A stretch of 11,656 bases of DNA from a virus (taxonomy: Duplodnaviria > Heunggongvirae > Uroviricota > Caudoviricetes): the IMG/VR virus record IMGVR_UViG_2778261571_000003. One strand, 5' to 3'. This document shows, in pieces, positions 4,083 through 11,656 of this stretch. The position numbers and the translations under genes were made by a program. The notes beneath the pieces are model-generated. The model saw only the letters and a list, made by a program, of their open reading frames with translations. It did not search any database and had not been told where the DNA came from. Position 1 is the stretch's first letter; each line of letters opens with the position of its first letter.

Positions 4083-4460
4083 TTATTTCGAACAATCAGC
4101 ATCCATCTCCAATCGGAGATCCAACACCATCAGCATACCCTCCACTACGCCCTCAGCTTTCTGAAGCATCCTGCCAACCCAACAATCAGATCGCCCATGC
4201 TTACGTGCAAGCGCCATAAAAGTCATGCCGCCGACATAATAGTCCACCAATAAATCATGCAAATCGCTGTTGTTCTTTTTCAGACGGGCCATGCACCCGC
4301 AAATGATCATCGCGTCATCGTCACAACATTGTGGGCGAGATTTTACTTTTGAAGGAATTAATCCCTTAAAACCGGCGGCAATGGACGACCAGGTCACATC
4401 TTCATGATTATTAGCCGCCCACGCTCCCCAACGCTCAAGAACCATCTGAATATCACGCAT
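4083..4460 (-). CDS. Q: Late-gene antiterminator Q (phage-82 / DLP12 QuuD type)
   Basis: Translation [75 protein letters not shown]... matches what I recall of DLP12 QuuD, including the Cys-rich segment. Track ORF starts at TTG 4475; ATG 4460 (MRDIQ...) preferred. Stop TAA 4085..4083. Confidence 0.85.
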
Positions 4461-4545
4461 CAACTTACTCCACAAAACTCAGACCAGAACGCCAATTACA
4501 AGCAAAAATCAACAAAACAGTATTAGTTGATTGTTATCTCTGACT

Positions 4546-5332: not shown

Positions 5333-5495
5333 GATTCCTCCTTGCTGCCAGTCGCAACCATTTTTTATCAACCAGGCTAGCGGTATATCCGAGCAGTGTT
5401 GGTATTTCGGATGGCTTCAGCTCAGGCTTACGCTTACGACGATTTGATACTCTGTAGATGTGTCCGTTCATGACACGAATAAGCGGTGTAGCCAT
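5325..5495 (-). CDS. ninE: NinE-like small protein (56 aa)
   Basis: Not in the ORF track. Hand translation from ATG 5495: [56 protein letters not shown], stop 5327..5325. ATG overlaps the ybcN stop (TAATG) with AGGAGG upstream. Order ybcN-ninE-ybcO-rusA matches DLP12. Confidence 0.65.
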   Translation of the reverse strand: MATPLIRVMNGHIYRVSNRRKRKPELKPSEIPTLLGYTASLVDKKWLRLAARRNHG

Positions 5496-5950
5496 TACGC
5501 CTCCTGCTTGTCGCGGAGCAGCTGGAACTCGCAGCTCTGCGGAATAGTCAGGTGGCAGCCAATATTCATCGCCCAGGCTTCAACCTTACACAGGAAGACA
5601 TACATCTCTCCGGTATCAAGATTGGAGGTATGACGTAATGACTGAATGGTGGTGATTTCACCGGTTACGACATCAACCAGTTCTTTGGTTTCATAACCGA
5701 GATAAGTGTGTTTGAGAGCATCTTTTACCCAAGCTGGAGTGGCGAACGTTTTACCCCTGCTGATGAGGTATTCACTGATTTCGCTGTACCACATGTGGCT
5801 GAGTGCATTCTGGGAAAGACTGCGTCTCTCGCGCCACGGTTTAAGCACCATGCGAAAGCATTTGCCGTCCTCCAGATAAGGCTGGATCTGCCGACCGATA
5901 GCGGTGAAGTTACCGCGATGCAATTTGATACCATCTTGTGGGAGGTTCAC
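5495..5950 (-). CDS. ybcN: YbcN-like protein (NinB-related; DLP12 YbcN family)
   Basis: 151-aa [24 protein letters not shown]...[18 protein letters not shown]... The RSLSQN..W motif resembles lambda NinB (RSLDQNRKLW) and the whole matches recalled DLP12 YbcN. GTG start at 5950 with GGAGG 6 nt upstream. Confidence 0.75.
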
Positions 5951-6156
5951 GCTTCACCTCCGCAGAGATCAAACGCTGGATGCAAAATATCGCAGGTGCA
6001 TTTCTGCATCTGTGAATGGAGAAGAGAGGTTGGATTGTATGTGCGCATAAACGTCCCCGTTTAGCGCAGAAGTCACCGGAGTTGTTCAGGCTCCGATTAC
6101 TTAATTATGGCAAGTTGATTATCGCAAATCAAAGGTTTTAATTGTGCTTTATTCTT

Positions 6157-6357
6157 TCAAGCGTTTCCTTCATACCAAAGCCTATAAAGTTTTTCTTCTT
6201 CGTTTGGGTTAATAGGCTCACCATGTTTTAATTTTTCAGTGTACAAAATTGTTGAACAAATCGCGGAAGTTAATCCAGTGATCGCCATCTGCCGCAGATC
6301 GGATTTTTGTGTCCCCCTCAACAGACGATCTCCCATCCATGTAATAATTGTATCCAT
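6157..6357 (-). CDS. Hypothetical small protein (66 aa), no recognised family
   Basis: ORF MDTIITWMGDRLLRGTQKSDLRQMAITGLTSAICSTILYTEKLKHGEPINPNEEEKLYRLWYEGNA with only a weak SD (AAGGG, ~9 nt spacing). Co-oriented with the operon and downstream of the ORF-free stretch. Coding status uncertain. Confidence 0.35.
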   Translation of the reverse strand: MDTIITWMGDRLLRGTQKSDLRQMAITGLTSAICSTILYTEKLKHGEPINPNEEEKLYRLWYEGNA

Positions 6358-6940
6358 GCTTCAGCCCTTCTTAGTAAATAGTGTGTAGGGCGACTGAAGG
6401 ACCGAGTTTATGCTTTTTCGCATTGCTTTCAGTTAGTAGACCGGTATAGCACCGGAAACAATCCTACGGCAAATTGGTTGTCTGACCTCTCGGTTTTTCG
6501 TGCATTAACCGATACCCACTACAGTCTCGGCGAAAGCTGCACACCCCCAAGGTGTACTGGTAGCACTCGGCACAGCCTAGCGCGCCACTTTCTCCTCACT
6601 ATCCAGTCTAATTTTATCCCCTAGTCAGACACTCAGATGTAGTGCTCAGCAGCGGCATGCGGGGGAATACAAAAACTCGGACAAAATTGGGCCCTCCTTT
6701 TTGAATCACTCGCGGGGATGTAGTTATTAATACATGGGAAAAGATCTGTTTTCAAATCCAACATTATATGGTTTCAATACCACGGGGTGGCTATGTGTTT
6801 CTCATTATTATTTACAATCTACTGTAATCGCTCCGAACGCAAATGCGTCAATACTCGAATCAACTGATCATCCTGCCACGACTGAAATCTCAAATAGGCC
6901 GTTTCTCAAGTAAGAGATTTTGAATGCATTATTGGCTACT

Positions 6941-6969
6941 GAAATAAAAAACCCAGCGCAAACTGGGTT
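6941..6969 (-). terminator. Rho-independent terminator after the secreted-protein gene (tR2-like position)
   Basis: Minus-strand RNA: AACCCAG-UUUGCG-CUGGGUU (stem 6950-6956 / 6963-6969) followed by UUUUUUAUUU. Lies immediately after the stop of the 6987..7481 gene. Confidence 0.55.
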
Positions 6970-6986
6970 CATATGAAATTTTTTTG

Positions 6987-7481
6987 TCATTTCCAATTGC
7001 AAGACTGTGAAATTTTTTCCACAACCTTATCAATCTCAGACAAGTCAAACTCAACTACTTGCATAGTTGATCCATAAGGTTCAAACCCAAAAATAGCTTT
7101 TTTATGCTTAGCCAAGGTCTTTATAAATTGTATTGGTTGTGGAGCAAATGCAGAATCACCGCCTTCCCCACCTCCCCAAACACTCTTGACCGGCTTTCCG
7201 CCATCTAACCGCACTGTAATTCTTGGGTTGTCCGAACCCATATAATCATTGAATGATAAATAGGCATCTGTTTTGTTATCACTACAACGCAACACCAGTG
7301 AAGTTGCACGATCAGTACCTGCTTTGTTATATGAATCTGGTGATAAATTAAGAGCCACAAAGTCAGTCTGGTCAGTCATTTTATTTATCTCAGACTTTGT
7401 TATCCACGGCCCTAACTTCTCTACACCAGCATTTGCTGTAAACGAGGCACTTATAACAAAGGCTAAAATAAATTTTCTCAT
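6987..7481 (-). CDS. Secreted/periplasmic protein of unknown function (cargo gene)
   Basis: 164-aa ORF with a classical signal peptide (MRKFILAFVISASFTANA|GVEK...). Strong RBS AAGGAG 8 nt before ATG 7481. AT-rich relative to neighbours. No family recognised; no counterpart at this position in lambda. Confidence 0.7.
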   Translation of the reverse strand: MRKFILAFVISASFTANAGVEKLGPWITKSEINKMTDQTDFVALNLSPDSYNKAGTDRATSLVLRCSDNKTDAYLSFNDYMGSDNPRITVRLDGGKPVKSVWGGGEGGDSAFAPQPIQFIKTLAKHKKAIFGFEPYGSTMQVVEFDLSEIDKVVEKISQSCNWK

Positions 7482-7627
7482 AACCCTATCTCCTTGGATT
7501 CAAAGAACTAAATATTATCAAGTCTCTTGCCACTAGAAAACCCACTTTATTTCCAAACTCTGATGGCATTCCTGAAAATCCGCTTCATACTCACTTGCCC
7601 CGCCCTATCATCCTGAGTAGCTAACCG

Positions 7628-7801
7628 TTAAACAAACGTTCGCCAGACCTTACCATCAATGACCAGGATTCCTGCCCGCGTCATTTTTGCCGCAGCCTTA
7701 TTTATGCTGGTTAATGTCACACCTGTTGTCGCAGCAACGTCCGGCGCACAGAAGCTCTTGTGCGTCTCCAGATAATGAATAATTGCCTCTTTGCCCGTCA
7801 T
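7628..7801 (-). CDS. ren: Ren-like protein, truncated (57 aa; lambda Ren is longer)
   Basis: Not in the ORF track. Hand translation from ATG 7801: MTGKEAIIHYLETHKSFCAPDVAATTGVTLTSINKAAAKMTRAGILVIDGKVWRTFV*, which matches the recalled N-terminal half of lambda Ren up to ..KVWRT and then stops (TAA 7630..7628). ATG overlaps the P stop (ATGA). Confidence 0.6.
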   Translation of the reverse strand: MTGKEAIIHYLETHKSFCAPDVAATTGVTLTSINKAAAKMTRAGILVIDGKVWRTFV

Positions 7802-8499
7802 ACAGTTGCTCCTTTCAGTCCGAACTTCGCTTTGATTTCTGCGATCTTCGCCAGAGCCTGAGCCCGGTTAAGTGGTCTACCGCCCATGACAGGAAGTTGT
7901 TTTACTGGTTCAGGTATAGCCTCACCACGGTTAATTCGTGCGGTCATACAGGACAGTTCATCGGCAGCCTTGCGCCGTAATTCCGCGTCAGTCAACGCAT
8001 TGGCCCGCATGTTCTGATACAGGTTGGTAACCAGCCAGTAGTGCGCGTTTGATTTCCACGGATAAGACTCTGCATCCGGATACAGCCCGCGCTTCCGGCA
8101 ATACTCGTAAACCATATCAACCAGCTCGCTGGCGTTTGGCAGCCCGGCGGTAACGGATGCTTCTTCCCGGCACCAGGCGACAAACTGCCCGGGTGATGGC
8201 AGGAATGGTCGATTCTGCCGACGGGCTACGCGCATTCCAGCGTTAACCTGTTCCATTGTGGTGATCCCGTTTTCCCGGAAAGCCAGAACCCACTGGCGGC
8301 GAATTTCGTTCAGTTCGTTCTGGTCACGGTTAGCCAGGCTCGCAGGGAAAGTTGCCAGCAACTGGCTGAATACACCGTTGATGATCTGCGCTACCTGCTG
8401 TACCTGCGGCTTTTCGTCGTACTGTTCCGGCATGTTGTTGGCGATCCGGCGCATCTGCTCACGGTCAAAGTTAATCATCTGTGCGGCGATGTTTTTCAT
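7798..8499 (-). CDS. P: Replication protein P (lambda P-type DnaB helicase loader)
   Basis: From ATG 8499: MKNIAAQMINFDREQMRRIANNMPEQYDEKPQVQQVAQIINGVFSQLLATFPASLANRDQNE...GLKGATV (233 aa), almost residue-for-residue lambda P as recalled. ATG overlaps the O stop (ATGA at 8499..8496). The track ORF start at 8604 is an upstream in-frame extension inside O. Confidence 0.95.
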   Translation of the reverse strand: MKNIAAQMINFDREQMRRIANNMPEQYDEKPQVQQVAQIINGVFSQLLATFPASLANRDQNELNEIRRQWVLAFRENGITTMEQVNAGMRVARRQNRPFLPSPGQFVAWCREEASVTAGLPNASELVDMVYEYCRKRGLYPDAESYPWKSNAHYWLVTNLYQNMRANALTDAELRRKAADELSCMTARINRGEAIPEPVKQLPVMGGRPLNRAQALAKIAEIKAKFGLKGATV

Positions 8500-9425
8500 A
8501 GATCCACCCCGTAAATCCAGTCTGTGTTTGTCAGGTCGAGTTTTGGTTTGCCGGCTGTCACGCCAGCCTGTTGCTTGTTTCGGTTGATTTCGAGCTGGGT
8601 CCACTTGTCGCGGAGTTTGGCCGGACTCAGCACGTTACCGGACCAGAAGTTGTCCTGGCATGCCCAGCGGAACAGTACACACATGTCGCGGTGGTTACGT
8701 CCGTCACGTTCACGCATCAGGCGGATATCGTTAGCCCACCCTGCAAAATTCGGTTTTCTGGCTGATGGCGCGATGGTCTTCACCATGTCAAACATCCACT
8801 CTGCGGCGGTCAGGTCTTCTGCTGTCCCCCACTTGCTGCCGCTCTGAATTGCAGCATCCGGTTTCACCACAGGAAGGGCATTTTCTGGCTGGTCAGAGGA
8901 TTCGCCATAATTCTCGGACGAAAAAGGTTTTATATTGTCTTTTGTTAGTTTGTCTTTTGTGTTTACCTGATTCGGGTAAATGCCTTTACCTGATTTGGGT
9001 AAGCTTTTCTTACCTGATTCAGGTAAATTTACCTCTTTCAGGTAAACTTTATTTTTCTTACCCGATTCGGGTAATGTTGACCATTCACTGACCACATTAT
9101 TGATGCCGATATTCCGCCCGCTCTGAATAAGAATTCCACGCTTTACCAGAACACTTTTTGCAGCAGAACACTTGTGCGGCAATATCCCGGTCAATTCGGA
9201 AAGTTGCTCGTTGCTCACCCAATCCAGTCTTTTATTAAAGCCATATGTTTTGCGCATGACAGCCAGGAAGACCAGAAGCTGGTGCTGTGTTAATCCGGCC
9301 AGCATCACAGCTTCCAGCAACTCATTTGCAATGCGCGTATAACCATCGTCGAGATCTGCCACGCGCCGCTCCTTTTGTGCCACATCCGGCACTGGAAAAT
9401 TGAATATCTCAGCAGTGTTTGCCAT
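8496..9425 (-). CDS. O: Replication initiator O (lambda O family) with embedded origin
   Basis: From ATG 9425 (RBS GGGAGGA 4 nt upstream): MANTAEIFNFPVPDVAQKERRVADLDDGYTRIANELLEA..., ending ..LDLTNTDWIYGVDL like lambda O. The central linker (..LPESGKKNKVYLKEVNLPESGKKSLPKSGKG..) is encoded by the iteron repeats. The track start at 9515 is an upstream extension. Confidence 0.9.
   Translation of the reverse strand: MANTAEIFNFPVPDVAQKERRVADLDDGYTRIANELLEAVMLAGLTQHQLLVFLAVMRKTYGFNKRLDWVSNEQLSELTGILPHKCSAAKSVLVKRGILIQSGRNIGINNVVSEWSTLPESGKKNKVYLKEVNLPESGKKSLPKSGKGIYPNQVNTKDKLTKDNIKPFSSENYGESSDQPENALPVVKPDAAIQSGSKWGTAEDLTAAEWMFDMVKTIAPSARKPNFAGWANDIRLMRERDGRNHRDMCVLFRWACQDNFWSGNVLSPAKLRDKWTQLEINRNKQQAGVTAGKPKLDLTNTDWIYGVDL
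8921..8962. other. AT-rich segment flanking the iterons (candidate DNA-unwinding element of the origin)
   Basis: AAAAAGGTTTTATATTGTCTTTTGTTAGTTTGTCTTTTGTGT lies immediately on the O-downstream side of the iterons and contains a tandem direct repeat TTGTCTTTTGT (8935-8945 and 8950-8960). Iterons followed by an AT-rich stretch is the ori-lambda architecture. Confidence 0.5.
8963..9074. repeat. Origin iterons: five 17-bp dyad-symmetric repeats inside O
   Basis: TTACCTGATTCGGGTAA (8963-8979), TTACCTGATTTGGGTAA (8986-9002), TTACCTGATTCAGGTAA (9010-9026), TTACCTCTTTCAGGTAA (9029-9045), TTACCCGATTCGGGTAA (9058-9074). Each is a near-palindrome TTACC..GGTAA, spaced 19-29 bp apart, in the middle of O as in ori-lambda. 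Confidence 0.8.
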
Positions 9426-9511
9426 AATTCCTCCCGCAATGAGTGCGTTACGATTTGCACCTGAAAGTCGGCTCTGTTCCCGCAGACCGGCTTTCGCCAT
9501 TTCCGAACCTG

Positions 9512-10051
9512 TCATATTGCCCCCAGCATGGTGGTGACCATCGCCATCAGTGGACCAGCCAAATCCGGGTCCACACGAAACATCGACACAATGCCTTCAC
9601 TCATCTCCTTCAGTTTCTGGTGGCGTGGTGCGTTGAGAATGACAGCCTGTTTTGCCTCACTGAGTTCCTTTTCCATTTCAGCCAGCCGAGCCATGAAGCT
9701 ATCCTGCTCAACCAGGTGGCCGCGATATTCCAGCGGTAGTACCGCCAGAATTGCCGGGGTCAATTCACGCACGTTATTTCGGTATTTTTCAGAATCGAAT
9801 TTGTTATCGAGGAAGCGGAACAGCTTCTGGCGTGCACGGCTGACATCATCAGGGAAATCGATGGTGCCGCCGCCCTGCTCCCGATACTCATTCACAATGA
9901 GTGCGGCAACGACATCCTGATTATCTACAGCCGACCAGGCGCGGACGGCATCACGGATTTTTTCGTGGCCTGGAGCTTGTTTTGTTTGAGAACGATTTAT
10001 CACCGCAGTCGGGCTAAATCCGCTAGTCTGTTGGTATGTAAGTGGTTGCAT
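9512..10051 (-). CDS. YdaT-family protein (CII-position regulator; annotated 'toxin YdaT' in Rac-like prophages)
   Basis: 179-aa ORF in the cII position between the Cro-like gene and O. Motifs IVNEYREQGGG and ELTPAILAVLPLEYRGHL resemble those I recall from Rac YdaT. RBS AAGGAG 7 nt before ATG 10051. Confidence 0.65.
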   Translation of the reverse strand: MQPLTYQQTSGFSPTAVINRSQTKQAPGHEKIRDAVRAWSAVDNQDVVAALIVNEYREQGGGTIDFPDDVSRARQKLFRFLDNKFDSEKYRNNVRELTPAILAVLPLEYRGHLVEQDSFMARLAEMEKELSEAKQAVILNAPRHQKLKEMSEGIVSMFRVDPDLAGPLMAMVTTMLGAI

Positions 10052-10351: not shown

Positions 10352-10455
10352 AACAACCTCCGTGGTTAATTTGAATCAAGATTAAAACTATGGTTGTTTT
10401 TAGTCAACAACCATTTTCGTTTGATGAAATAAAACCTTGGTTGTACATTTGGACT
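10352..10455. promoter_or_regulatory. Divergent operator/promoter region between the Cro-like and cI genes
   Basis: Perfect 9-bp inverted repeat ATGGTTGTT-7bp-AACAACCAT at 10390-10414. Half-site GGTTGT/ACAACC recurs at 10353-10358, 10392-10397, 10407-10412 and 10439-10444. Candidate rightward promoter on the minus strand: -35 TTGACT (10402-10407) overlapping the palindrome, 17-bp spacer, -10 TAATCT (10379-10384). Candidate cI promoter: TTGATG (10421-10426), 17-bp spacer, TACATT (10444-10449), ending 6 nt before the cI ATG with no SD, suggesting a leaderless mRNA. Confidence 0.5.
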
Positions 10456-11145
10456 ATGAAAACAACACTCTCAGAAAGACTTAAAGAAGCCAGATTAGCG
10501 CGAGGCCTTACACAAAAGGCGCTTGGGGATTTGGTCGGGGTTAGCCAAGCAGCTATTCAGAAAATCGAAACAGGGAAAGCTAACCAAACAACTAAAATCG
10601 TGGAGATCGCGAACGCTTTGGGTGTGCGCGCAGAATGGTTATCTTCTGGCGTTGGAAATATGTCAGACAGTACAGTGCAACCAATACAAACAACTGTCAG
10701 CCATTCCAAATACTTTAAGATTGACGTTCTTGATATCGAAGTGAGTGCCGGGCCGGGAGTCATCAACCGTGAGTTTGTAGAAGTTCTACGTTCGGTTGAG
10801 TATTCGTTTGACGATGCTCGTCACATGTTCGATGGCAGGAAGGCGGAAAATATCCGTATCATTAACGTACGCGGTGACAGCATGTCAGGAACGATCGAAC
10901 CAGGTGATCTGCTGTTCGTTGATATCACTGTTAAATCTTTCGACGGTGATGGTATCTATGCGTTTCTGTACGACGACACAGCCCATGTAAAGCGCCTGCA
11001 AATGATGAAGGATAAACTGCTGGTTATCTCTGATAACAAGAGCTACTCACCGTGGGACCCAATCGAGAAAGACGAGATGAACCGGGTATTCATCTTCGGG
11101 AAAGTCATCGGGAGCATGCCGCAGACGTATAGGAAGCATGGATAA
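10456..11145 (+). CDS. cI: CI-type prophage repressor (XRE-family HTH + LexA-like S24 peptidase domain)
   Basis: From ATG 10456: MKTTLSERLKEARLARGLTQKALGDLVGVSQAAIQKIETGK.. (HTH), with a C-terminal autocleavage domain carrying the Ser/Lys dyad context (..VRGDSMSGTIEPGDLLFVD.. and ..AHVKRLQ..). Divergent from the Cro-like gene. The track start at 10390 is an extension that would begin inside the operator palindrome. Confidence 0.9.
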   Translation: MKTTLSERLKEARLARGLTQKALGDLVGVSQAAIQKIETGKANQTTKIVEIANALGVRAEWLSSGVGNMSDSTVQPIQTTVSHSKYFKIDVLDIEVSAGPGVINREFVEVLRSVEYSFDDARHMFDGRKAENIRIINVRGDSMSGTIEPGDLLFVDITVKSFDGDGIYAFLYDDTAHVKRLQMMKDKLLVISDNKSYSPWDPIEKDEMNRVFIFGKVIGSMPQTYRKHG

Positions 11146-11494: not shown

Positions 11495-11656
11495 CTGATG
11501 AATCCCCTAATGATTTTGGTAAAAATCATTAAGTTAAGGTGGATACACATCTTGTCATATGATCAAATGGTTTCGCGAAAAATCAATAATCAGACAACAA
11601 GATGTGCGAACTCGATATTTTACACGACTCTCTTTACCAATTCTGCCCCGAATTAC
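11495..11656 (+). mobile_element. IS10 (Tn10-type IS4-family element), outside end; continues beyond window end
   Basis: From 11495 the sequence CTGATGAATCCCCTAATGATTTTGGTAAAAATCATTAAGTTAAGGTGGATACACATCTTGTCATATGATCAAATGG... matches the IS10 outside end as I recall it, including the terminal repeat, the IHF-site region and the Dam GATC (11561-11564) in the transposase promoter region. The 9 bp just outside (TGCTCAGCC, 11486-11494) fit the IS10 target consensus NGCTNAGCN. Confidence 0.85.
11602..11656 (+). CDS. IS10 transposase, first 18 codons (continues beyond window)
   Basis: ATG at 11602 followed by MCELDILHDSLYQFCPEL, the recalled N-terminus of IS10/Tn10 transposase. Confidence 0.8.
   Translation, partial: MCELDILHDSLYQFCPEL

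What the first reader, a model, noticed from the sequence alone, without database searches (positions are those of the whole stretch)
6157..6986. ~580-bp ORF-free, stop-codon-dense stretch with a small ORF inside the early operon
Between the terminator at 6941-6969 and the 66-aa ORF (start 6357) there is no ORF of 60 aa or more on either strand, and the minus strand has stops in all three frames. That is unusual for a tightly packed phage operon in which the neighbouring genes overlap by 1-8 nt. The stretch alternates AT-rich promoter-like sequence (e.g. TATAAT-like hexamers around 6760-6770) with GC-rich segments having potential long-range complementarity (ACCGAG at 6400-6405 vs CTCGGT at 6488-6493; CTCGGC repeated at 6525-6530 and 6566-6571). 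Candidates are a structured non-coding RNA or long regulatory leader for the small ORF, a decayed pseudogene, or a recombination scar. I could not assign it to any known RNA family.
Basis: seen in the sequence. Interest (0 to 1): 0.6.

Follow-up and report, generated by a model that had tools for sequence, protein, structure and literature searches.

The report
New structured RNA gene in prophages
The "empty" stretch mostly holds a gene for a 333-base, intricately folded RNA that matches no catalogued RNA family, is shared by lambda-like prophages of E. coli, Klebsiella, Enterobacter and Obesumbacterium, and has no known function.

Summary
The ORF-free stretch is real, but it is four things, all on the minus strand. 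(1) 6949-6970 is the terminator of the upstream VasI/TagO-like gene. (2) 6822-6905 is the leftover last 28 codons of an antirepressor gene, ending at a recombination junction near 6907. (3) 6727-6755 is a conserved promoter-like pair of hexamers. (4) 6387-6719 is a 333-nt RNA gene.

Thirty-four distinct variants of the RNA were collected from viral and metagenome contigs. They support 92 base pairs in 17 helices, including a long-range pseudoknot. 97.3% of cells pair, against 29-44% in slid controls. 21 pairs show compensatory changes, against 2-7 in the controls. There are 377 G-U cells and 5 A-C cells, which fixes the minus strand as the RNA strand.

Flanking genes differ between phages, and 18 of 28 variants end in an intrinsic terminator. 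Nothing in Rfam 15 matches on the RNA strand, and seven literature searches found no description.

The 66-aa ORF is a deletion-truncated copy of a 118-aa four-helix protein of unknown function.

Best reading: a stand-alone, trans-acting structured RNA carried as a prophage accessory gene (a "moron"). Its function is unknown, and transcription has not been shown.

The parts
6387..6719 (-). The RNA gene, 333 nt. The 5' end is the A of AUCCCCGCGAG at 6719. The last conserved helix ends in CAGUCGCC at 6389. Domain 1 is RNA nt 1-104 (6719-6616). Domain 2 is roughly nt 112-330.
   Evidence: nhmmer placement; alignments A3 and A4; 92 pairs in 17 helices with 97.3% of cells paired and 21 compensatory pairs; 377 G-U cells against 5 A-C cells; 98.2% identical between two E. 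coli lineages whose flanks are 90-92% identical.
6623..6629 (-). 5' strand of the pseudoknot (UCUGACU, RNA nt 91-97). It pairs with 6481-6487.
   Evidence: Seven pairs, 99.6% of cells paired. Pair 96/236 changes from C-G to U-A in the four-sequence clade L089/L110/L116/L118. Pair 97/235 is C-G in 20 variants and U-G in 14.
6481..6487 (-). 3' strand of the pseudoknot (GGUCAGA, RNA nt 233-239).
6489..6494 (-). 5' strand of helix P13 (ACCGAG). It pairs with 6401-6406 (CUCGGU).
   Evidence: The outermost pair is A-U in 13 variants, G-C in 11, G-U in 3 and C-G in 1.
6727..6755 (-). Promoter-like element: TTGAAA (6755-6750), a 17-nt spacer, TATTAA (6732-6727), then 7 nt to RNA nt 1.
   Evidence: Both hexamers and their spacing are kept in all variants while the spacer sequence varies, and helix P1 starts at the predicted start site. 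Inferred only: the simple sigma-70 scan did not call it, because the second hexamer is non-canonical.
6757..6772 (-). Inverted repeat just upstream of and touching the -35 hexamer. It is CCATATAATGTTGG here and ACCATATGTTGTATGGT in most relatives. It may be an operator.
   Evidence: Seen in the upstream alignment. Not tested.
6819..6907 (-). Remnant of the last 28 codons and stop of a 202-aa Bro-N/P22_AR_C antirepressor gene. Homology to phage IdasGreatGrand ends at 6907-6909, which marks a recombination junction.
   Evidence: tblastn 68% identity over 28 aa, E 1e-8, and the blastn break points; Pfam assignment of the intact gene.
6949..6970 (-). Intrinsic terminator of the upstream 164-aa VasI/TagO-like gene (6987-7481).
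   Evidence: gene identity.
6358..6386 (-). Spacer between the RNA and the small ORF, carrying its ribosome-binding site (AAGAAGGG). This lineage has no terminator here.
6157..6357 (-). 66-aa ORF. It is a copy of a 118-aa protein family (phrog_12412) that an internal deletion of about 130 nt has truncated.
   Evidence: PHROG matches; the deletion is visible in blastn against L001; the family has 21 clusters, none with a functional name; the predicted structure is a four-helix bundle with no significant PDB match.
6646..6684 (-). Short ORF inside the RNA: Shine-Dalgarno GGAGG, a UUG start at 6684-6682, and a stop here at 6648-6646 (12 codons). In most relatives it runs 19 codons to a UGA that corresponds to 6627-6625.
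   Evidence: Read from alignments A3 and A4. Variable sites fall evenly on the three codon positions (about 5-6, 5 and 5), so there is no sign of selection on a protein.

Best explanation
Window 6387-6719 (minus strand) is a gene for a roughly 331-333-nt non-coding RNA of a family not previously catalogued. The RNA folds into two domains. Nt 1-104 is closed by helix P1, and nt 112-330 is closed by helix P6. A 7-bp pseudoknot ties the two domains together.

It is most likely a transcription unit of its own. A conserved sigma-70-like promoter would place the start at the first base of P1. In most relatives an intrinsic terminator follows 8-12 nt after the last helix.

The unit lies in the early-right operon of lambda-like prophages, after the replication genes. 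It is followed by a slot whose accessory genes differ between phages, and then by ninB. That layout, with its own promoter and terminator and with variable neighbours, is the layout of a prophage accessory gene (a 'moron').

I infer that the RNA acts in trans as a folded RNA that binds a conserved protein or RNA-protein machine of Enterobacterales or of competing phages. That would make it a decoy, sponge or scaffold in phage-host or phage-phage conflict. I do not think it works by antisense pairing.

In this window the terminator is missing, so transcription would continue into the truncated 66-aa ORF.

Shown: conservation, the fold, the RNA strand, and independence from the neighbouring genes. 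Inferred: the promoter, the discrete transcript, and action in trans. Unknown: the target and the phenotype.
For: Conservation limited to the RNA: the Klebsiella phage Kp4856-1 shares only this roughly 330-bp block with the window, at 78% identity, and its flanking genes differ. Between two E. coli lineages the RNA is 98.2% identical and the flanks are 90-92%.

Fold: 34 distinct variants give 92 pairs in 17 helices. 97.3% of cells pair, against 29-44% when partners are slid. 21 pairs carry compensatory changes, against 2-7. The covariation score is 0.232 against 0.04-0.06, and 0 of 500 shuffles reach it (earlier versions).

Strand: 377 G-U cells against 5 A-C cells.

Pseudoknot: a compensated pair in a four-sequence clade.

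Own transcription unit: the -35 and -10 hexamers and their 17-nt spacing are kept while the spacer varies. Terminators follow in 18 of 28 variants, and their sequences differ between variants.

Independence from neighbours: upstream and downstream genes vary between phages. In L052 the terminator is followed directly by an ordinary nin-region gene, DUF1367.

Not coding: no ORF is shared, and there is no codon periodicity in the variable sites.

Not a known family: Rfam 15 gives nothing on the RNA strand even at E<=10, in three variants.
Against: There is no transcript evidence at all. The promoter's second hexamer is non-canonical (TATTAA here, TTTAAT or TTAAAT elsewhere), and the simple scan did not call it. 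The 5' end could therefore come from processing of read-through from the early promoter.

In three lineages, this window's among them, no terminator separates the RNA from the next ORF. There the RNA would be a long 5' leader.

The near-invariant 5' domain contains a strong Shine-Dalgarno sequence, a UUG start and a 12-19-codon ORF. That would suit a leader that senses translation.

No partner or target was found. The 31 to 34 variants come from a few clades, so cell counts overstate the number of independent events.
Confidence: 0.55

Rival explanations
1. The RNA is a cis-acting leader. Translation of the short internal ORF would unwind domain 1 and the pseudoknot, refold the RNA, and set how much transcription passes the downstream terminator into the accessory gene and the nin genes. 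This would resemble the roughly 260-320-nt mgtA/mgtL and tnaC leaders of enterobacteria (comparison from established knowledge).
For: A strong Shine-Dalgarno sequence, a UUG start and a 12-19-codon ORF sit inside the near-invariant domain 1. A terminator follows in 18 of 28 variants. Where it is missing, an ORF starts 29-60 nt downstream. The RNA and the 118-aa gene are linked without a terminator in E. coli, Enterobacter and Obesumbacterium.
Against: The terminator stems differ in sequence between variants, and no conserved alternative pairing with the RNA was seen. The ORF's stop lies about 250 nt before the terminator. The downstream genes are unrelated to each other, and in L052 there is no accessory gene at all. 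One fold accounts for 97% of the cells. The ORF shows no coding signature, and this window's lineage has a premature stop.
Confidence: 0.2
2. The RNA is an antitoxin or regulator for a toxic product of the variable downstream gene. The layout would be that of type III toxin-antitoxin loci: promoter, RNA, terminator, then the toxin gene.
For: The order promoter, RNA, strong terminator, small uncharacterised gene is seen in most variants.
Against: There are no tandem repeats. The same RNA precedes at least five unrelated proteins, and in L052 none. No downstream protein matches ToxN-like or any other PADLOC or Pfam family. A 51%-identical homologue of the 118-aa protein occurs without the RNA.
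Confidence: 0.07
3. The RNA mimics a type I-E CRISPR repeat and acts as a decoy for Cas6e or Cascade, like the RNA anti-CRISPRs. Helix P1 with the base of P2 reads UCCCCGCG...GGGGAU(G/A)AA, which resembles the E. coli repeat GAGUUCCCCGCGCCAGCGGGGAUAAACCG.
For: The repeat sequence was verified in 4260 of 5426 E. coli genomes. There is an 8/8 match at the RNA's 5' end and a 9-11-nt match on the paired strand. RNA anti-CRISPRs and prophage-borne type I-E repeat-like arrays in Salmonella are documented (PMC10651486; bioRxiv 10.1101/2024.10.29.618823).
Against: The match is barely above chance. With dinucleotide shuffles, p is 0.008-0.011 for both halves in the window and L063 variants, 0.06 in the Klebsiella variant and 0.37 in L089, and the comparison was made after the fact. 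The part resembling the crRNA 5' handle is not kept in the L089/L110/L116/L118 clade. From memory, Klebsiella type I-E repeats differ from the E. coli one, and the Klebsiella variant shows no sign of matching them. A repeat mimic also does not explain a conserved 331-nt fold.
Confidence: 0.04
4. The stretch is only debris, a decayed gene and recombination scars with no function, or else a DNA-level site.
For: Part of it is debris: 6822-6905 is a gene remnant and the 66-aa ORF is a deletion product.
Against: The RNA block is more conserved than its flanks. It is kept across four genera. It shows compensatory changes and a strong strand asymmetry of G-U over A-C, which neither debris nor a double-stranded DNA site would produce.
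Confidence: 0.03

Closest known systems
GOLLD and ROOL, large ornate RNAs carried by phages and prophages
   Same: A large, multi-helix, strongly conserved non-coding RNA carried by (pro)phages. It is not tied to one protein partner, and its function is unknown.
   Different: There is no match to their covariance models. It is smaller, about 331 nt against roughly 580-800 nt. It occurs in lambda-like prophages of Enterobacterales, not in Firmicutes, rumen or lake lineages. It is not next to tRNA genes. Whether it forms multimers was not tested.
Type III toxin-antitoxin loci (ToxIN, CptIN, TenpIN)
   Same: The order of parts: promoter, non-coding RNA, intrinsic terminator, then a small gene, on a mobile element.
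   Different: The RNA is a single complex fold, not an array of tandem repeats. The downstream proteins are unrelated to each other and to ToxN-type nucleases.
Long enterobacterial leader RNAs with short ORFs (mgtA/mgtL, tnaC)
   Same: About 300 nt, structured, and containing a short ORF with a ribosome-binding site, upstream of a termination point.
   Different: This RNA is not tied to one downstream gene. The terminator's sequence is not conserved with the RNA. One fold fits nearly all variants, and the ORF shows no sign of selection on its product.
RNA anti-CRISPRs (Racr) and phage CRISPR-like regulatory RNAs
   Same: A phage-encoded RNA with its own promoter, and a short resemblance of helix P1 to the type I-E repeat hairpin.
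   Different: The resemblance is not significant and is not conserved across variants. Racrs are single repeats or mini-arrays, not 331-nt pseudoknotted RNAs (PMC10651486).
Known prophage small RNAs of E. coli and Salmonella (DicF, IpeX, AsxR, AgvB, StxS, IsrK, Pas sRNAs)
   Same: Encoded in lambda-like prophages of enterobacteria.
   Different: Those are 50-200-nt base-pairing RNAs located elsewhere, in the immunity region or downstream of Q. Those with Rfam models did not match. The Pas sRNAs lie near Q and the lysis genes.

Membership tests
Any Rfam 15 family (4227 models) | A match to the family's covariance model on the RNA strand | tested here: not met
   The only match at gathering score in the window is RNA-OUT at 11540-11609. 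Scans at E<=10 of three variants give nothing on the RNA strand within the RNA body; the few weak hits fall on the opposite strand or on the terminator and downstream flank.
tRNA / tmRNA | A tRNA-like domain that ARAGORN can detect | tested here: not met
   No genes found in the window.
Type III antitoxin RNA (ToxI-like) | Tandem direct repeats of about 34-36 nt | tested here: not met
   No tandem repeats in 6100-7050 at minimum score 30.
Type III antitoxin RNA (ToxI-like) | A cognate endoribonuclease toxin gene directly downstream | tested here: not met
   The downstream proteins are mutually unrelated and have no Pfam or PADLOC match.
Retron msr-msd RNA / reverse-transcriptase-associated RNAs | An adjacent reverse-transcriptase gene | tested here: not met
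   The ORFs within about 1.8 kb in 18 loci are replication, nin and small accessory genes, and none is long enough in the right place. The annotated record shows none.
RNA anti-CRISPR / CRISPR-repeat mimic | Near-identity to a host CRISPR repeat, conserved across variants | tested here: not met
   The repeat was verified. The split match has p of 0.008-0.37 depending on the variant and is lost in one clade.
Riboswitch or attenuator leader | A terminator conserved with the RNA and able to form an alternative pairing with it, and association with one gene family | tested here: not met
   Terminator stems differ between variants and are absent in three lineages, and the downstream genes vary. Alternative pairings were only looked for by eye.
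GOLLD / ROOL type large phage RNAs | A covariance-model match, or multimeric assembly | tested here: not met
   No model match. Assembly cannot be tested with these tools.
Base-pairing (antisense) small RNA | A conserved, accessible seed complementary to a target | tested here: inconclusive
   No complementarity of 11 nt or more recurs at the same RNA position across 8 loci. Host targets could not be searched.
Protein-coding gene or pseudogene | A shared reading frame, or similarity to a protein | tested here: not met
   For 6387-6719 there is no shared ORF and no codon periodicity in the variable sites. The feature is met only for 6822-6905, the antirepressor remnant.

The most novel reading that the evidence does not exclude
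This would be a new class of large, pseudoknotted RNA carried by phages of Enterobacterales that works without a dedicated protein partner. It could be a ribozyme, an RNA-only assembly, or a decoy for a conserved cellular or defence machine such as the ribosome, RNA polymerase, an RNase or an immune effector. It would be expressed from the repressed prophage to change the outcome of phage infection.
Probability: 0.3. Interest if true: 0.85.

Novelty: categorically new. Interest (0 to 1): 0.72.

Why it matters
Large RNAs with complex conserved folds are rare, and most known classes turned out to be ribozymes, sensors or cores of RNA-protein machines. E. coli and Klebsiella are among the most thoroughly annotated bacteria. 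Even so, this 331-nt RNA is left unannotated in the RefSeq record inspected, or covered by short "hypothetical protein" calls in GenBank phage records.

It is present in 187 of 5426 complete E. coli genomes and in inducible Klebsiella and E. coli phages. Lysogens and phages exist for experiments, so the question can be tested directly.

The RNA also marks the left edge of a slot, before ninB, that holds a different uncharacterised gene in each phage. Such slots are a place to look for new defence or counter-defence genes.

The novelty label applies to the RNA family only. No new mechanism has been shown.

Tried and rejected
- **Rfam.** Gathering thresholds on the whole window, and E<=10 on three variants, gave only terminator-like chance hits.
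- **Single-sequence folding.** The 629-nt stretch is not unusually stable (z -1.36 on the minus strand, -0.13 on the plus strand). Single-sequence energy would have missed the RNA.
- **Representative-genome scan.** The genome-contig scan with an 18-mer returned only chance hits in unrelated phyla. The representative genomes scanned had no exact match to this 18-mer in any relative.
- **Plasmids.** No match.
- **CRISPR-repeat mimicry.** Rejected as the main reading after the shuffle test.
- **Leader peptide or small protein.** No codon-position bias, and a premature stop in this window's lineage.
- **Antisense target nearby.** None recurs across loci.
- **Other resemblances considered by eye.** I compared the RNA with boxA/boxB nut-like decoys, a sarcin-ricin-loop mimic, a sigma-32 promoter and a CsrA sponge with GGA motifs. 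In each case the motif is not conserved or is no more frequent than chance.
- **The 118-aa protein.** Structure prediction gives a generic four-helix bundle with no significant PDB match, and it lacks the HEPN motif.
- **Pfam, PHROGs and PADLOC** on the accessory ORFs gave no function.
- **Covariance model.** I did not try to build one for the full 335 columns, because calibration was likely to exceed the tool's time limit. I used nhmmer profiles instead.
- **Literature.** Seven searches found no description.

Full report
**Setting.** The window is part of a lambda-like prophage related to DLP12. It is 100% identical over 6100-7050 to E. coli PM4. The early-right operon runs on the minus strand in this order:
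- a cII-position gene (9512-10051)
- O (8496-9515)
- P (7798-8604)
- a frameshifted ren
- a 164-aa secreted VasI/TagO-like protein (6987-7481)
- the gap
- a 66-aa ORF (6157-6357)
- ninB/ybcN (5495-5950) and the remaining nin genes
- Q (4083-4475)

No ORF of 60 aa or more lies in 6358-6986. The minus-strand terminator is at 6970-6949. G+C rises to 52-58% inside the gap, against 33-40% around it.

**What drew attention.** Among 50,697 phage records, only two E. coli and two Klebsiella phages match the region. The Klebsiella phages share only window 6391-6719 or so, at 78% identity, and have different genes on both sides. The alignment shows invariant blocks alternating with variable blocks. In Klebsiella a rho-independent terminator follows on the minus strand.

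**Collecting relatives.** Exact-pattern scans with four conserved blocks brought in about 100 loci from IMG/VR and metagenomes. Look-ups of homologues of the downstream protein added more. nhmmer found the element in all true hits. They comprise 34 distinct full-length sequences of 329-334 nt. Named hosts are Escherichia, Klebsiella, Enterobacter bugandensis and Obesumbacterium proteus. The element is present in 187 of 5426 complete E. coli genomes, in no plasmid of PLSDB, and in none of the GTDB representative genomes by exact 18-mer.

**It is a folded RNA read from the minus strand.** RNAalifold on 13 and then 31 variants gave a consistent model. I added a pseudoknot (UCUGACC with GGUCAGA) and the variable hairpin, then counted pairs on 34 variants.

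| Measure | Model | Controls with partners slid 1-3 columns |
|---|---|---|
| Cells forming a standard pair | 97.3% | 29-44% |
| Pairs with changes on both sides | 21 | 2-7 |
| Covariation score | 0.232 | 0.04-0.06 |

The model has 92 pairs in 17 helices, and none of 500 shuffles reaches the observed values.
- The best-supported helices are P7, P9, P11, P12, P13 and the variable hairpin P16.
- The pseudoknot has one compensated pair (C-G to U-A) shared by a clade of four sequences, and a C-G/U-G alternation at another pair.
- G-U cells outnumber A-C cells 377 to 5. On the opposite strand only 85% of cells would pair.
- Single-sequence folding energy was not unusual. The evidence is comparative.
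- Caveat: the variants fall into a handful of clades, so the number of independent events is much smaller than the cell counts suggest.

**It looks like its own transcription unit.**
- Upstream, all variants keep TTGAAA/TTGAAT/TTGTAT, a 17-nt spacer of variable sequence, and TTTAAT/TTAAAT (TATTAA here). Six or seven variable bases follow, and then the invariant AUCCCCGCGAG, whose first base opens helix P1.
- The simple promoter scan did not call this site, because the second hexamer is non-canonical. The promoter is therefore inferred from its conservation pattern.
- An inverted repeat touches the -35 hexamer in most variants.
- Downstream, 18 of 28 inspected variants have a canonical terminator 8-12 nt after the last helix, and the stem sequences differ between variants.
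- Three lineages lack the terminator. They are the E. coli type that includes this window, the L055/L060 type and the L069/L100 type. In them an ORF starts 29-60 nt downstream.

**The neighbours vary.** Upstream genes differ between phages. Downstream, before ninB, I found six arrangements:
- a 118-aa protein
- a 178-aa protein with predicted membrane helices
- a 183-aa protein (phrog_27260)
- a 177-aa protein
- a pair of 95 and 162 aa
- in L052, nothing but the ordinary nin gene DUF1367

None of the accessory proteins matches Pfam or PADLOC. The RNA is thus the conserved left border of a variable accessory slot.

**The rest of the gap.** Window 6822-6905 translates to the last 28 residues of a 202-aa Bro-N/P22_AR_C antirepressor that is intact in phage IdasGreatGrand (68% identity, E 1e-8). 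Nucleotide homology to that phage breaks at 6907/6909. Here the VasI/TagO-like gene and its terminator replace the rest. The 66-aa ORF is the 118-aa family with an internal deletion of about 130 nt. The family has 21 clusters, none with a functional name. Its predicted fold is a four-helix bundle (mean pLDDT 80) with no significant PDB match. A 51%-identical homologue occurs elsewhere without the RNA.

**What it is not.**
- No Rfam family matches.
- No tRNA or tmRNA is present.
- No tandem repeats are present.
- No reverse transcriptase lies nearby.
- No antisense target recurs in the neighbourhood.
- The internal 12-19-codon ORF has a strong Shine-Dalgarno sequence and a UUG start, but no codon-position bias in its variable sites. 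This window's lineage has a premature stop.
- The resemblance of helix P1 to the type I-E CRISPR repeat (repeat verified) is close to chance (p 0.008-0.37 by variant) and is not kept in one clade.
- Seven literature searches found no description. The prophage Pas sRNAs described in 2026 lie near Q and the lysis genes.

**How it most likely works.** The fold, the strand and the independence from neighbours are shown. I infer that the RNA is made as a discrete transcript of about 335-365 nt from its own promoter. I also infer that it acts in trans through its three-dimensional structure, because the invariant bases sit in junctions, loops and the pseudoknot and not in one accessible seed.
- The moron-like layout, the position beside a variable accessory slot and the patchy spread across genera point to a role in phage-host or phage-phage conflict. 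No test here bears on that.
- The main rival is a cis-acting leader that senses translation.
- I put the structured-RNA gene at about 0.9, the stand-alone trans-acting reading at about 0.55 and the leader model at about 0.2.

**Novelty and interest.** The RNA lies outside every family I could test. The nearest analogues are GOLLD and ROOL, large phage-borne RNAs of unknown function, but only by analogy. I file it as categorically new at the level of RNA family. Its mechanism is unknown, and a prior description outside the searched literature cannot be excluded.

Noticed in passing
window 11540-11609 (-): A full-length match to RNA-OUT, the antisense RNA of IS10/Tn10 (98.8 bits, gathering score 41). 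An IS10 end therefore sits at the right edge of the window, just beyond the cI-like repressor gene (10390-11145).
   Followed up: no
window 6987-7481 (-): A 164-aa protein with a signal-peptide-like N-terminus. RefSeq names it 'type VI secretion system-associated protein TagO'. Its Pfam VasI match is borderline (26.7 bits against a cut-off of 26.5), and it belongs to phrog_1848. It has its own terminator and replaces most of an antirepressor gene, so it looks like a separately acquired accessory gene.
   Followed up: partly
window ~7530-7801 (-): In the identical prophage of E. coli PM4, the ren gene is annotated as a pseudogene (frameshift and internal stop). Only a 57-aa ORF (7628-7801) remains open here.
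   Followed up: no
window 6757-6772 (-); the same position in L055, L060, L063 and others: An inverted repeat just upstream of and touching the -35 hexamer of the RNA's promoter. It reads ACCATATGTTGTATGGT in most variants. It may be an operator for an unknown regulator.
   Followed up: no
window 6655-6660 (RNA nt 60-65): GCAUGC, a 6-nt palindrome, is invariant in all 34 variants and lies partly unpaired at the junction between helices P2 and P4. It could mediate RNA-RNA dimer contacts, which is speculative.
   Followed up: no
Between the RNA and ninB in L003, L026, L062, L069, L055 and others (window 6157-6357): A slot that holds a different uncharacterised gene in each phage: 118 aa; 178 aa with membrane helices; 183 aa; 177 aa; or a 95-aa and 162-aa pair. 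None matches Pfam or PADLOC. These are candidates for new defence or counter-defence genes.
   Followed up: partly
L122 300-656: A 51%-identical homologue of the 118-aa protein lies in a different setting, between a DNA polymerase III theta-like gene and DUF1233, next to an integrase, and with no copy of the RNA.
   Followed up: partly
L120 1796-2637: In the Obesumbacterium proteus prophage, about 840 bp with no called gene lie between the P gene and the RNA. I did not examine this stretch.
   Followed up: no
NZ_CP174001.1 (hit H19): One E. coli match lies on a 43-kb record classed as a plasmid. All 194 others are chromosomal. It may be a phage-plasmid or an excised or misassembled prophage.
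   Followed up: no
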